Positions 39,237 to 50,539 of a DNA stretch of 62,126 nt are shown piece by piece. Location of the stretch: positions 1 through 62,126 of IMG/VR virus record IMGVR_UViG_3300045996_000468; one strand, written 5' to 3'. The DNA is from a virus. Lineage: Duplodnaviria; Caudoviricetes. The notes under the pieces are model-generated. The model did no database searches and was not told where the DNA came from. It saw only the letters and a list, made by a program, of their open reading frames with translations. The position numbers were made by a program, and so were the translations under genes. Position 1 is the stretch's first letter. The number at the start of each line of letters is the position of its first letter.

Positions 39237-39512
39237 TTAAACGTCGTTGACGGCGGCGGCGATCTGATCTGCGATCGATTGCGTCAATGCGCCGTCAAAC
39301 CATTCGCGAACGCGCTCGCGTTCGTCGTCGTTCGCGCTGGCGATCTGCGTCGCGGCGACAAGCGCCATGACGTTCAAGATCACGAATGCGTTTTCGGGGC
39401 GCGGCCCGTGCCGGGCGTTCATGTGTCGCTGGAATTTGCCAGTCTCGTCTAAGACGGTTCCTGCGAAATGATTGAAGTCGTCCATATCTAGGGACATGCG
39501 TTTTTCGCTCAT
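39237..39512 (-). CDS. Hypothetical protein
   Basis: ATGA coupling with the upstream ORF. Confidence 0.55.
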   Translation of the reverse strand: MSEKRMSLDMDDFNHFAGTVLDETGKFQRHMNARHGPRPENAFVILNVMALVAATQIASANDDERERVREWFDGALTQSIADQIAAAVNDV

Positions 39513-39781
39513 TTGCTCTTCGCCTTTCTGCGCTTCGCGCTCTTGCGTTTCAAAACCTTGCGCGGCCGCCCGCGCGTGGCCTTATTCAACGTCGCTTCAT
39601 CCGGCATCTGAAAGACGCCGGGCTTCGTGCGCGGCTTGCGCTTCGGCATCGGATTATCGAGTGATGATCCGGGCTTCAGCGGCTCGGCTGATCGAATGCC
39701 GGGCCTAAAGTAATTGTCACCGCGCCGCATTCGCAGCGCGATCACGCTCGCCTCTTTCGGGCCTATCTCTCTTTTCGCCAT
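39509..39781 (-). CDS. Small basic protein with RGRPRK (AT-hook-like) motif
   Basis: GGGAAG RBS; Lys/Arg-rich C-terminus. Confidence 0.55.
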   Translation of the reverse strand: MAKREIGPKEASVIALRMRRGDNYFRPGIRSAEPLKPGSSLDNPMPKRKPRTKPGVFQMPDEATLNKATRGRPRKVLKRKSAKRRKAKSK

Positions 39782-39790
39782 GTGCTTCCC

Positions 39791-40546
39791 CTACAGTGAC
39801 ACGCCGCGACGGCGCAATTCGTGTTGGCAAGTGAAGATCATGTCTTCGTCGTCTTTGAACGTGTCGACGATCCATCGCAGATAGCCGGCATCGATCTGAT
39901 CGAACGTCAAATCTTTCAGCTTAGGATCGTTGCGCGTGCCGCCGATCGGTGTCGCTGCGATCCTGCACCGATAGAGTAATGCAGGCTGCGAGCTAATCTC
40001 GATCATGTCAGCGATCGTCAGCTTCGCGAGCGCGCGAACAAGCACGCTCGCAGTGACGAAAGTGTCCGCGCCCGCGCGGTGCGGCGGATGCGCCCGCGCC
40101 GGATCAAGCTTCAAGCGAAGTGCATACGCCATCGCCCAATTTTTATGGCTGTCCAGTTTCGGCGCGAGACGAAGCGAGACTTTCCACGTGCAAATCCATG
40201 GCGCATTCGTCGGCGCGAGATTGGCAAGGCGTTCTCGATCGAAAGATGCCACGTGCGCAGCGTAGGCTTCGATCGGGTCGACCGTTCCGTCTTTATGCGT
40301 GAATGGCTCGTAAACGCCATGATCGCGGATCACTTCGGAAAGCAACGGCTTCCCCTTCACGTCTTCGTCGACAATATGATGCGTCGCCATTGCGCCGAAC
40401 TCGATCAAGCAACCGGGATCGACCAGCCATGACCGCGTTTGCCCGATCGTCCATTCGCCATCCGTCATCCGAAAAACATCGGTGTGCGCTATCTCGACGA
40501 CTTCGCCGTTCAGCCCGGTTGTTTCAGTGTCAAGAACTCGCAACAT
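39791..40546 (-). CDS. DEDDh 3'-5' exonuclease (ExoX-like)
   Basis: LDTETTG, AH.A.FD, WICT.K, HRA..D motifs; GGGAGG RBS. Confidence 0.92.
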   Translation of the reverse strand: MLRVLDTETTGLNGEVVEIAHTDVFRMTDGEWTIGQTRSWLVDPGCLIEFGAMATHHIVDEDVKGKPLLSEVIRDHGVYEPFTHKDGTVDPIEAYAAHVASFDRERLANLAPTNAPWICTWKVSLRLAPKLDSHKNWAMAYALRLKLDPARAHPPHRAGADTFVTASVLVRALAKLTIADMIEISSQPALLYRCRIAATPIGGTRNDPKLKDLTFDQIDAGYLRWIVDTFKDDEDMIFTCQHELRRRGVSL

Positions 40547-40569
40547 TTCCCCCTCCCTTTTTCTTCCAA

Positions 40570-41059
40570 AAACAAAAAGCCTGCCATGCCATGCCCAACG
40601 CGGCTGCGCCGGTCCCCGACGAGCGACGCCTGCCGTGCTGCGCCATGCCTAACCACGCGCGGAAGTGCCTCGACACGCCCGCCCTGCCATGCCCACACAC
40701 GCCACGCATTGCCCTGCCGATCCGGTCCAAGCCTGCCATGCCTATGCGTGCCACGCCTGCCAAACCGCGCCATGCCAAGCCAAGCCTAAACGTGCCCAAC
40801 CCCGACGGGCCTGCCGTGCCATGATCTGCCGCGCCTCGTCCTGCCGTGCCGTTCCCGTTCACGCCTGCCGGGCGTCGCCGATGCTTGCGCAGCCCTGCGC
40901 ATCCATGCCTTGCCTGCCGCGCCTAACCAACGCCTTGACGAGACAAACCCCGCCGATCCGTGCCTAGCCTGCCAAGCCCGGACATGCCTAGCGCGAACTA
41001 GCCTAGCCATGCCTGCCGAACCTAACCGCGCCTGTCACGCCTAACCGCGCCCGATTGCA
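40570..41059 (-). ncRNA. Putative multi-unit guide RNA precursor with gapped dinucleotide code
   Basis: Co-oriented with and directly downstream of the RAMP-like gene pair; ends in GGCAGGC-UUUUUGUUUUU; the dinucleotides decode to conserved protein motifs. Confidence 0.75.
40579..41053. repeat. Array of 5-nt steps (+ strand RCC-NN; - strand NN-GGY) divided by GCCTGCC/GGCAGGC into 10-11 units
   Basis: Boundaries at 40579, 40628, 40677 (GCCCGCC), 40731, 40755, 40809, 40863, 40912, 40967, 41011 and 41030 (GCCTGTC); spacings 49,49,54,24,54,54,49,55,44,19 (5n+4 except one). By hand count 54 of 86 triplets are exact RCC. Confidence 0.95.
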
Positions 41060-41509
41060 TCACGCGCTTGCGCGTGACGCCGTCTTGTTCGGCCGCTTGT
41101 CTTTCGCTCGATCGACAGCGGACCAAACTTCGTTGAGCGCTTGCACACGTTGAAACTTCGCTTGCACGCGCGATAGTTCTTTCATCGCATCATCAAAAAG
41201 AACTTCCATCAAGTCGCGCGATGCTGCGACTTCATCGATCGCCCGATATCCGCCGCCGTCGACGCGGTCGATCGACAGTGACACCAGCACGGGCGATCCA
41301 TCCGCCTGCACAACATGCAACTGGATCAATCGACGCGCTTGCCAAAGGCGATATTCCTTCGCGGCTTCGGCGTCATCCCAAATGAACATTGAGTTCAGTT
41401 CGCTGCGCTTATTCTTGCGCGCGAAGTCGACGACATCTTCAGCGTGAAGCATGCCGTCTTTGCTGGCGGCTTTCACCGCCAGCAATTCATTTTTCAGCTT
41501 TACCGACAT
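41060..41509 (-). CDS. Accessory protein of the RAMP-like/array locus
   Basis: G.L....VV..A.....L...F.WDD.EAA..YRL.QAR.LI phage family; GGAG RBS; its stop codon abuts the array. Confidence 0.82.
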   Translation of the reverse strand: MSVKLKNELLAVKAASKDGMLHAEDVVDFARKNKRSELNSMFIWDDAEAAKEYRLWQARRLIQLHVVQADGSPVLVSLSIDRVDGGGYRAIDEVAASRDLMEVLFDDAMKELSRVQAKFQRVQALNEVWSAVDRAKDKRPNKTASRASA

Positions 41510-41523
41510 TTCGCTCCGTTCCT

Positions 41524-42240
41524 TTACGATACGAGTTCAAACAATCCCCAACCAAGCCCGGCAGAATTGCGACTGTCTGGCCGCCCCTCACCGATGCCGA
41601 CTTGCAAGCCGACGCGCGCGAACAAGTTCGCAACGTCGCTTGCGGAAAACTGCGCGGCATCCCAACGAATGCGCACGACAGCTTCCCAACCTTCGCGCCA
41701 CATCGGGCGGCACCGAATATCGGTGCTGCCGTTGTCGTTTCGTGCTGGCGCGAAATGCCGTTCCGGATCGCCCTTCGTGATCTTCACAAGTGGCGTCCCG
41801 TCGACGGCATCGAAGCCGTCCGCCTCGACGAACAGCGACAGCTTCGCCAGCGTCATCTTGAAGCCGATCGTTCGGCACGCGGATATCATCGCGTTTCGGA
41901 ATGCCGGCGCGGGAATGCCGCACCATCCTTCGGTCGACTTGTGTTTCGCGCCTTCGAAGACGGCGTCGAAATCTTTCGGATCGCGCTGGCGTCCTTTGCG
42001 CGCCTGCGATCCGGCCATTTGCGTTTCGATCATCGTCTGTTGTGACTTCTGACTGAAAGCATGCTGCACATACGGCGACGTTCCGCGAATGCGGATCGCT
42101 GCGGTTTCGAACTTCGGCGGCGCGATGATCGCCTGTCGTGTGTTCGGATCGCTCGCGATCTTTTTTGCTGCTGTGATTTTCATCGGGACCACTTCAGCGG
42201 TGGCGACTTTCTTTGGCTTAGGCACTTGCGTTTGCTCCAT
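41524..42240 (-). CDS. Cas7/RAMP-fold-like RNA-binding protein (putative guide-RNA effector)
   Basis: N-terminal strand I.I.G.SPY..H, IP..AF.NAM..A helix (compare RAMP IPGSS.KG.LR), C-terminal Gly-rich loop G..VGIGEGRP......G.GWG.F. Confidence 0.75.
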   Translation of the reverse strand: MEQTQVPKPKKVATAEVVPMKITAAKKIASDPNTRQAIIAPPKFETAAIRIRGTSPYVQHAFSQKSQQTMIETQMAGSQARKGRQRDPKDFDAVFEGAKHKSTEGWCGIPAPAFRNAMISACRTIGFKMTLAKLSLFVEADGFDAVDGTPLVKITKGDPERHFAPARNDNGSTDIRCRPMWREGWEAVVRIRWDAAQFSASDVANLFARVGLQVGIGEGRPDSRNSAGLGWGLFELVS

Positions 42241-50464: not shown

Positions 50465-50539
50465 GTCCCCGTCTTCTAGCGGTTAGGAAAGCGGCCTTTC
50501 ACGTCGCAAACGCCGGTTCGAACCCGGCCGGGGACGCCA
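50465..50539 (+). tRNA. tRNA-Glu (TTC)
   Basis: Acceptor stem GTCCCCG/CGGGGAC, anticodon loop CT-TTC-AC, T-arm GCCGG-TTCGAAC-CCGGC, encoded CCA. Confidence 0.95.

What the first reader, a model, noticed from the sequence alone, without database searches (positions are those of the whole stretch)
40628..40676. Array unit decodes to VAIYTRVST, the serine-recombinase catalytic motif, under a wobble-skipping code
Seen: the + strand parses as gcct|gccGT|gctGC|gccAT|gccTA|accAC|gcgCG|gaaGT|gccTC|gacAC. Treating each dinucleotide as codon positions 1-2 with the third base skipped gives GTn GCn ATn TAn ACn CGn GTn TCn ACn = V-A-I/M-Y-T-R-V-S-T. Established: (A/G)(I/Y)YxRVST contains the catalytic serine of resolvases and large serine integrases. 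Inference: the guide recognises a gapped 2-of-3 target, which is immune to synonymous escape, in the most conserved part of a competing element's integrase. A 9/9 match to such a well-known motif is the strongest internal evidence for the code. I recognised no serine recombinase in this phage, so self-targeting is not expected.
Basis: partly seen in the sequence, partly recalled or inferred. Interest (0 to 1): 0.95.

Follow-up and report, generated by a model that had tools for sequence, protein, structure and literature searches.

The report
VIPR guide matching serine-recombinase active site

Summary
Window 40632-40681 parses into ten 5-nt steps (RCC-like triplet plus dinucleotide), and nine dinucleotides read as codon positions 1-2 give VAIYTRVST.

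The "wobble-skipping code" is the published 1-nt skip rule of VIPR systems (bioRxiv 10.64898/2026.04.26.720920). The locus is a VIPR locus:
- The 238-aa gene at 41524-42240(-) is a Vipr homologue. Its clade profile hits PDB 36pp "SUSP1 Vipr protein" at E=6.3e-06, and the wider family profile at 1.6e-37.
- A 149-aa partner gene and a ~480-nt GGY/NN array follow on the same strand.

The gapped pattern found 22 viral and at least 120 genomic stretches. All 144 hits are in frame at the start of serine recombinase genes. Four controls (reversed order; 0-, 2- and 3-nt skips) found 0. The phage has no self-target and no serine recombinase. A second unit spells MKNYVQPG, the start of phage cement genes.

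Limits: host and natural target are unknown, there is no RNA evidence, and the guide is not pan-recombinase (2 of 29 unselected resolvases reach 15/18).

A guide next to a recombinase's catalytic serine is already in print (10.64898/2026.10.15.759431). This scan has noted VIPR on other DNA many times. Verdict: new member of a known kind.

The parts
41524..42240 (-). vipr gene (238 aa, P0001): lone RAMP/Cas7-like protein of the VIPR system
   Evidence: A profile of its 7-member clade hits PDB 36pp_D 'SUSP1 Vipr protein' at E=6.3e-06. The 53-sequence family profile hits it at E=1.6e-37. The AF2 model has pLDDT 88.9, and its best Foldseek hits are Csm3/Cas7-type subunits of type III and type VII CRISPR effector complexes, at E of about 1e-5. 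It matches phrog_4652 and no Pfam family. P0001 alone gives no phmmer hit in the PDB.
41060..41509 (-). probable vap (VIPR accessory) gene, 149 aa (P0002)
   Evidence: It lies between vipr and the array. It belongs to a 13-member family, 12 of whose members sit immediately upstream (in the direction of transcription) of GCCNN arrays in other viral contigs. It matches phrog_15946. The AF2 model has pLDDT 87.3 and is helical. The only fold matches are non-significant forkhead/winged-helix rows at E of about 0.5-3.
40579..41059 (-). vrRNA array: about 10 contiguous guide units of GGY/NN pentamers, separated by 4-nt steps (GGC-A-GGS in the RNA)
   Evidence: 57 GCC against 3 GGC and lag-5 autocorrelation 0.45. 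Punctuation sites lie at 40579, 40628, 40682, 40712, 40731, 40755, 40809, 40863, 40912, 40967 and 41011, and each unit parses in register after its site. No Rfam family reached its gathering score; the one evalue-mode row (RF02939, 41916-41991, E 0.67) lies outside the array. Identical fragments occur in contigs of two soil-metagenome runs, one of which may be the source sample.
40632..40681 (-). the guide unit in question: 10 steps, NN (read on +) = GT GC AT TA AC CG GT TC AC CG. The first nine spell VAIYTRVST under the 1-nt skip rule.
   Evidence: Searches give the parse. Searches give 144 of 144 exact hits in frame in serine recombinase genes. Searches give 0 hits for the four controls. In one search (which, unlike, joins the loci with N spacers and scores both strands over all 10 steps), 2 places match all 10 steps (20/20).
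40759..40808 (-). second guide unit whose last eight steps spell MKNYVQPG, the start of phage cement protein genes
   Evidence: 116 of 120 read MKNYVQPG from an ATG, and 120 of 120 stay open for 25 aa. 4 of 4 sampled ORFs are PF09956 Phage_cement_2. The phage has no PF09956 gene and no self-target.
39791..40546 (-). DEDDh exonuclease gene just downstream of the array (a neighbour; membership in the system not shown)
   Evidence: PF00929 RNase_T at E=2.5e-12 and phrog_192 'DNA polymerase exonuclease subunit' at E=3e-30. It did not recur beside other arrays: it sits in a singleton cluster.

Best explanation
Window 40632-40681 (transcribed from the minus strand) is one guide (vrRNA unit) of a phage-encoded VIPR system.

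Inferred mechanism, taken from the published SUSP1 system:
- Vipr protomers (the 238-aa protein) bind one per pentamer. They sequester each GGY triplet and expose the NN dinucleotides.
- The NN dinucleotides pair with a DNA strand while every third target base is flipped out.
- The resulting R-loop triplex blocks transcription.

Shown here by computation: the nine dinucleotides of this unit are complementary, at codon positions 1-2, to the sequence encoding V-A-I-Y-T-R-V-S-T. This is the first beta-strand and catalytic-serine motif at the very start of a sub-lineage of serine recombinase genes, both large integrases and small resolvase/invertase types.

Inferred function: a phage that has no integrase of its own silences the integrase/excisionase gene of a rival mobile element (prophage, satellite or other) in its still unknown soil host. 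The precedent is SUSP1 vrRNA4 acting on satellite recombinases.
For: (1) The system is VIPR. A Vipr homologue is present. A GGY/NN pentamer array lies on the same strand. A conserved partner gene is present.
The same gene-array association holds across viral contigs. 73 Vipr-family ORFs from 66 loci were found among 259 distinct ORFs flanking arrays in 122 loci plus the window. In 51 arrays both flanking genes lie opposite the GCC strand, against 6 on the GCC strand, out of 157 arrays by crude ORF calling.

(2) The published rule is 1-nt skip with wobble alignment, acting on either strand with no PAM.

(3) Target test. All 144 hits read VAIYTRVST. 137 of 144 have no stop in the next 40 aa. The motif lies a median of 3 codons from an in-frame start. 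Of the 121 ORFs that end inside their locus, 54 run 450 aa or more past the motif and 47 run 150-300 aa. 8 of 8 sampled ORFs are PF00239.

(4) Controls found 0 hits: reversed order, 0-, 2- and 3-nt skip. 30 permutations reached at most 16/20 in 1 Mb of recombinase loci. 50 permutations reached at most 15/18.

(5) There is no self-target and no PF00239 or PF00589 gene in the record, which CheckV rates 100% complete.

(6) A second unit independently decodes to a conserved gene start.

Against: - No RNA data exist for this phage, so transcription, processing sites and unit ends are inferred.
- 4 of 10 GGY triplets in this unit are degenerate (RNA GUC, UUC, CGC, AGC). Perturbing GGY abolished silencing in SUSP1, although that paper's methods note frequent internal degeneracy in natural vrRNAs.
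- The Vipr G-loop reads E-G-R where SUSP1 has D-W-R.
- The tenth step (CG) is matched at only 2 places.
- The host and the natural target are not identified.
- Exact hits are rare in the class that holds the best-named terminase relatives: 0 of 400 further genomes of the class of G001.
- Of 29 resolvase loci not selected by the pattern, from 41 genomes of one order, only 2 reach 15/18 and none reaches 16/18.
- None of the other arrays among the 157 scanned (39.6 kb in all, the window's own included) carries a Y.RVS guide.
- The other units of this array do not match the recombinase loci better than permutations do.
- Because the pattern equals a restricted back-translation, hits falling in recombinase genes follow from the decoding. 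The evidence lies in the contrast with the controls.
Confidence: 0.78

Rival explanations
1. The array is a real VIPR array, but this unit is decayed or otherwise inactive, or its working target is something other than a recombinase gene. The match to the recombinase motif would then be a relic or irrelevant.
For: 4 of 10 scaffold triplets are non-GGY. The tenth step is rarely matched. No natural target was found in a plausible host group. There is no expression evidence.
Against: A perfect 18/18 match over nine consecutive steps is hard to keep without selection. The controls gave 0 hits. Other units of the same array show similar scaffold degeneracy, 3-8 canonical triplets per unit. The published methods mention frequent internal degeneracy.
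Confidence: 0.15
2. Coincidence: the decoding is numerology on a C-rich periodic stretch and the recombinase motif arose by chance.
For: Another of its decodings (RIYRYY, 40971-41010) behaves like chance: 49 hits in 48 viral stretches, 48 of them with stop codons in frame, mostly in AT-rich contigs.
Against: 22 viral and at least 120 genomic exact hits were all in one frame of one gene family, against 0 for four controls. A second unit was independently validated. The code is experimentally established for this family.
Confidence: 0.03
3. The periodic stretch is not a guide array but a DNA-level element, such as a replication origin, protein-binding iterons, or an R-loop or G-quadruplex-prone tract. 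This was my own first idea.
For: It is G-rich on the sense strand, lies among early/replication genes, and sits next to an exonuclease gene.
Against: It is tightly coupled to Vipr homologues across 66 loci. Its dinucleotides decode to conserved coding motifs. The published biochemistry of such arrays shows them to be guide RNAs.
Confidence: 0.03

Closest known systems
VIPR (Viral Interference Programmable Repeat) systems; reference system type II of Escherichia phage SUSP1 (bioRxiv 10.64898/2026.04.26.720920 and 10.64898/2026.04.26.720927)
   Same: A lone RAMP-like Vipr protein, an adjacent small accessory gene, GGY/NN pentamer guide RNAs on the same strand, phage-borne, 1-nt-skip targets aligned to codon wobble positions, and no self-targeting.
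   Different: The units here are 44-55 nt and contiguous, separated by a 4-nt step, with no room for the ~30-40-nt 3' tail/pseudoknot of SUSP1 vrRNAs. The G-loop reads E-G-R, plus an insertion ending in GWG, instead of D-W-R. The accessory protein has no significant fold match. The VIPR type (I-VII) could not be assigned because the classifying figures and tables are supplements I could not see.
SUSP1 vrRNA4 against the excision recombinase of F5 satellites (bioRxiv 10.64898/2026.10.15.759431)
   Same: A VIPR guide read entirely at codon-determining positions of a serine-type recombinase's catalytic core, next to the catalytic serine. The predicted effect is immobilisation of a rival element.
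   Different: That guide has a six-unit, 18-bp footprint at residues 79-84 of one satellite family and was tested experimentally. This one has nine matched units at residues ~1-13, covers the serine codon itself, has no identified natural target, and has not been tested.
'Staggered' vrRNA arrays (legend of fig. S18 of 10.64898/2026.04.26.720920; legend text only, seen)
   Same: Adjacent vrRNAs with no spacer, where the end of one marks the start of the next, with a 1-nt offset. This fits the GGC-A-GGC 4-nt steps seen here.
   Different: The figure itself was not visible, so the equivalence is an inference.
Class 1 CRISPR Cas7/Csm3 backbone filaments
   Same: The RAMP fold (Foldseek E of about 1e-5). 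One protomer binds per repeat of the guide, with periodic base flipping.
   Different: There are no CRISPR repeats or spacers and no other cas genes. The period is 5 nt with three sequestered bases, and only 2 of every 3 target bases are paired.

Membership tests
VIPR system | Vipr protein: stand-alone RAMP (RRM core, G-loop, thumb) homologous to SUSP1 Vipr | tested here: met
   The clade profile A3 hits 36pp_D at E=6.3e-06 over 173 positions, including the G-loop. The family profile A1 hits it at E=1.6e-37. The best Foldseek hits of the AF2 model are Csm3/Cas7-type subunits. P0001 alone gives no phmmer hit.
VIPR system | vrRNA of tandem YNNGG (GGY/NN) pentamers, at least 4 units, with conserved triplet and variable dinucleotide | tested here: met
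   57 GCC against 3 GGC, lag-5 autocorrelation 0.45. There are 8 units of 8-10 steps, with 3-8 canonical triplets each, plus three short ones of 3-5 steps.
VIPR system | Array next to and co-oriented with vipr, in a viral genome | tested here: met
   The genes at 41524-42240 and 41060-41509 and the array are all on the minus strand. G000 is a virus record.
VIPR system | Accessory vap gene with a DNA-interaction fold | tested here: inconclusive
   The 149-aa gene recurs beside arrays, in 13 family members. The fold search gave only non-significant winged-helix rows at E of 0.5 or more.
VIPR system | Guides match natural coding targets under the 1-nt skip rule, with skips on wobble positions and not under other skip lengths | tested here: met
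   This unit gave 22 viral hits against 0, 0 and 0 for 0-, 2- and 3-nt skips, and 0 for reversed order. 144 of 144 hits are in frame. A second unit is validated. A third unit (40971-41010) is not supported.
VIPR system | No self-targeting at 80% NN match or more | tested here: met
   0 matches in the window at up to 3 mismatches for both validated guides.
VIPR system | Conserved 3' tail / pseudoknot capping each vrRNA (type II feature) | tested here: not met
   The units abut each other at 4-nt steps and no tail-sized spacer exists. The paper describes other architectures, so this bears on the type, not on the family.
VIPR system | G-loop residues that read G1, G2 and Y3 (D177, W178, R179 in SUSP1) | tested here: inconclusive
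   P0001 and its six clade relatives have E-G-R at these columns. The R is conserved in 51 of 53 sequences of A1.
VIPR system | vrRNA expressed and bound by Vipr; binding and silencing of target DNA | not testable with these tools
   No RNA holder is listed for this sequence.
Serine recombinase (target gene family, PF00239) | The matched sequence lies in frame in the Resolvase N-terminal catalytic domain | tested here: met
   8 of 8 sampled target ORFs are PF00239, from profile position 1-2. Two also carry PF07508 and one PF13408. That the S of RVST is the catalytic nucleophile is recalled knowledge. One search gives the paper's own wording for its satellite recombinase.

The most novel reading that the evidence does not exclude
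A divergent, tail-less VIPR clade has an E-G-R G-loop and units separated by 4-nt steps, and tolerates 40% non-GGY scaffold triplets. It is carried by an integrase-less soil phage and uses a guide that covers the catalytic serine codon itself, disabling a whole VAIYTRVST-type lineage of serine recombinases (integrases and resolvases alike) in rival elements. If so, VIPR scaffold rules would be looser, and guide targeting more motif-centred, than the SUSP1 model shows.
Probability: 0.25. Interest if true: 0.5.

Novelty: new member of a known kind. Interest (0 to 1): 0.35.

Why it matters
VIPR was described only in 2026 and few natural targets are documented. This locus adds a soil-phage example from a divergent Vipr clade. 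Two of its guides can be read outright: one against a serine-recombinase catalytic motif and one against the start of phage cement genes.

It supports the published idea that VIPR guides settle on codon-determining positions of functionally invariant residues, and that recombinases of rival elements are a recurrent target. It also offers a natural test case for how much GGY degeneracy a Vipr filament tolerates.

It does not open a new class. The code, the protein family and a recombinase active-site target are already in print.

Tried and rejected
- My first hypotheses were a replication origin, an R-loop or G-quadruplex tract, a TRAP-like or annealing-protein binding array, or an RNA sponge. 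I dropped them once the flanking-protein clustering and the PDB profile hit led to the VIPR papers.
- The Rfam scan of 39500-42000 found nothing on the array.
- P0001 alone against PDB sequences gave no hit. Only the profiles worked.
- Broad-spectrum ('pan-serine-recombinase') reading, tested and weakened. Of 30 best PF00239 loci from 41 genomes of one order, only the seed locus (itself chosen by the pattern) is 18/18. Two others are 15/18 and the other 27 score 11-14. Permuted guides scored a mean of 11.9 per locus. 0 of 400 further genomes of that class had an exact hit.
- Convergence of several guides on one element: none found. Other units score no better than permutations in the recombinase loci. 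The recombinase guide reaches at most 15/18 in the cement-gene loci, and the cement guide at most 14/16 in the recombinase loci.
- No Y.RVS guide other than the window's own occurs among the 157 arrays scanned.
I treat it as chance in that frame.
- Host inference is only weak.
- No RNA holder is listed for this sequence. The contigs of runs X1 and X2 only show that identical fragments exist.
- Protelomerase (PF16684), tyrosine integrase (PF00589) and Resolvase (PF00239) were not found in the record.
- The fold search on the Vap model gave no significant match.
- The punctuation motif is not a clean marker in clade relatives.
- I could not see the supplements of the VIPR papers (target tables data S3/S4, figs S16-S22). 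They may already list this clade, its type, or serine-recombinase targets.
- The metagenome-contig scan, complex prediction and the protein atlas were not used.

Full report
**Observation**

The stretch lies in a 514-nt non-coding region (40547-41060). The region sits between two minus-strand genes: a 251-aa DEDDh exonuclease (39791-40546; PF00929, phrog_192) and a 149-aa gene (41060-41509).

The region is strongly 5-nt periodic. Identity at lag 5 is 0.45, against about 0.25 in the neighbouring gene. It is also strand-asymmetric, with 57 GCC against 3 GGC.

The phase of the pentamers slips by one base at recurrent GCC-T-GCC sites. These lie at 40579, 40628, 40682, 40712, 40731, 40755, 40809, 40863, 40912, 40967 and 41011. 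They cut the array into units of 15 to 51 nt, eight of them with 8-10 steps.

After each slip, the unit parses as triplet plus dinucleotide. The unit in question is 40632-40681, with ten steps. Its dinucleotides are GT GC AT TA AC CG GT TC AC CG. Six of its ten triplets are RCC and four are degenerate.

**How the system was identified**

A distant blastn of the region hit cluster-F-type mycobacteriophages (Cheoctovirus: Quico, Florinda, BobaPhett and others). These carry even more regular non-coding arrays of about 48 GCCNN units among early genes.

Most have varied dinucleotides.

I oriented the arrays with GCC on top and called ORFs crudely. Of 157 arrays, 51 had both neighbours on the opposite strand and 6 had both on the same strand.

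Clustering the 259 distinct flanking ORFs gave one dominant family: 73 proteins from 66 loci, median 214 aa. A second family of 13 contains the window's 149-aa protein. The window's 238-aa protein (41524-42240, P0001) carries the dominant family's C-terminal glycine-rich motif.

A profile of 53 family members hit one PDB entry, 36pp 'SUSP1 Vipr protein', at E=1.6e-37. A profile of only P0001 and its six closest relatives (46-68% identity) hit the same chain at E=6.3e-06. P0001 alone gave no hit. The AF2 model (pLDDT 88.9) is most similar to Csm3/Cas7-type subunits of type III and type VII CRISPR effector complexes.

**What is in print**

A paper search found three 2026 preprints on VIPR systems.

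- 10.64898/2026.04.26.720920. I read the abstract, Results, Discussion, methods sections 20 and 27, and passages.
  - vrRNAs have 9-16 YNNGG repeats plus a 3' tail.
  - The NN dinucleotides pair with DNA under a '1 nt skip rule', with the skipped base generally at the codon wobble position.
  - Either strand can be targeted and there is no PAM.
  - Guides are aimed at competing phages and satellites.
  - There are seven types with variable array architectures, including 'staggered' arrays.
- 10.64898/2026.04.26.720927. I read the abstract and the first part of Results. One Vipr protomer binds per repeat, GGY is sequestered, and an R-loop triplex forms.
- 10.64898/2026.10.15.759431. I read the abstract, section 6 and passages. 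[quoted passage not shown]
- A fourth preprint, 10.64898/2026.10.21.760802 (passages only), recovers 99 period-5 VIPR-like clusters.

**Test of the specific claim**

The 1-nt-skip pattern of the nine dinucleotides has no match in the phage record, nor at up to 3 mismatches.

Among the resulting hits:
- All 144 translate to VAIYTRVST, never M or a stop at the ambiguous positions.
- 137 of 144 have no stop in the next 40 codons.
- The motif lies a median of 3 codons from an in-frame start.
- Of the 121 ORFs that end inside their locus, 54 run 450 aa or more past the motif (large serine recombinases). A further 47 run 150-300 aa (resolvase/invertase size), 4 run 300-450 aa, and 16 run under 150 aa.
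- Eight of eight sampled ORFs are PF00239 starting at profile position 1-2. Two also carry PF07508 and one PF13408.
- The skipped positions show all four bases (T or C only after TA; no G after AT). There are 121 distinct 26-mers among the 144 hits.

Controls in the same viral collection all gave 0: reversed dinucleotide order, 2-nt skip, 0-nt skip and 3-nt skip.

The pattern is a restricted back-translation, so finding recombinase genes follows from the decoding. The evidence is that this particular dinucleotide order and gap length, and no control, correspond to abundant real sequence.

**Support from the rest of the array**

The unit at 40759-40808 spells MKNYVQPG with its last eight steps.
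- 116 of 120 read MKNYVQPG from an ATG, and 120 of 120 remain open for 25 aa.
- ORFs have a median length of 111 aa, and 4 of 4 sampled are PF09956 Phage_cement_2.
- The phage itself has no PF09956 gene and no self-target.

The unit at 40971-41010 is different. It gave 49 hits, 48 of them with in-frame stops and mostly in AT-rich contigs. I read that as chance.

**Results against a bolder reading**

- The guide is not a general anti-serine-recombinase guide.
  - In 41 genomes of the order of a Labrys genome, 29 carry PF00239 genes.
  - Of the 30 best loci, only the seed (itself chosen by the pattern) is 18/18. Two are 15/18 and the other 27 score 11-14. Permuted guides scored a mean of 11.9 per locus.
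  - The commonest local motif, (I/L)IGYARVST, gives 12/18.
  - None of 400 further genomes of that class had an exact hit.
- The tenth step is matched at 2 places only.
- No other array among the 157 scanned has a Y.RVS guide.
- Other units of this array do not match the recombinase loci better than permutations.
- The two validated guides do not converge on the same fetched loci.
- The host is unknown.
  - Sequencing runs that hold the phage are soil metagenomes.
  - The best-named terminase relatives are Bradyrhizobium (59%) and Brucella (55%).
  - The nearest isolated phages are labelled cyanophages.
- No RNA evidence exists.

**Differences from the reference system**

- Units abut without a tail. 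This fits the legend of the paper's 'staggered arrays', but I could not see the figure.
- The G-loop of P0001's clade reads E-G-R, followed by an insertion ending in GWG, where SUSP1 has D-W-R.
- Scaffold triplets are often degenerate, but the position corresponding to Y3 is kept in all ten steps of this unit.
- The 149-aa partner is helical, with only non-significant winged-helix similarities.

**Verdict**

The element is a new member of a known kind, not a new kind. This scan has already noted VIPR loci on much other DNA: 510 notes in at least 390 genomes. One later check recorded there warned that 'breadth' claims for motif-directed guides had failed, which prompted the breadth test.

Noticed in passing
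L001 2448-2686; L002 2477-2726 (Mycobacterium phages Quico and BobaPhett): Cheoctovirus (cluster F-type) mycobacteriophages carry a ~240-nt, ~48-unit GCCNN array just upstream of a Vipr-family gene annotated 'hypothetical protein' (QUICO_57; BobaPhett gp52). In BobaPhett a 54-aa 'hypothetical protein' (gp51) is annotated over the array. 'Mycobacteri' does not occur in the main text of the VIPR discovery preprint.
   Followed up: partly
window 40759-40808: A second guide unit spells MKNYVQPG, the start of PF09956 phage cement protein genes. 116 of 120 viral hits read it from an ATG. The phage lacks that family.
   Followed up: yes
Its target is unknown.
   Followed up: partly
whole window (G000): The record is rated 100% complete by CheckV but holds no serine recombinase, tyrosine integrase or protelomerase match. 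Its terminase is nearest to Microcystis phage Mae-JY30 (48%), then to the phages VP882 and phiHAP-1 (36% and 34%). Its lifestyle is unclear.
   Followed up: partly
window 41524-42240 and L033, L054, L056, L068, L079, L095: A Vipr sub-clade has E-G-R in place of the D-W-R G-loop triad of SUSP1, plus a conserved insertion ending in GWG. This may go with the looser GGY scaffold seen in this array.
   Followed up: partly
L004, L014, L021, L024, L044, L049, L119 and others: Many viral contigs show repeated modules of array, ~200-aa Vipr gene, array, with arrays about 640-730 nt apart. One contig with such arrays has only 39% GC.
   Followed up: no
window 41057-41080: An 11-nt inverted repeat (91% complementary, 2-nt gap) straddles the stop codon of the 149-aa gene at the upstream edge of the array. 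It could be a processing or termination hairpin.
   Followed up: no
window 50465-50539: A single tRNA-Glu (anticodon TTC) lies on the + strand, inside the minus-strand early region.
   Followed up: no
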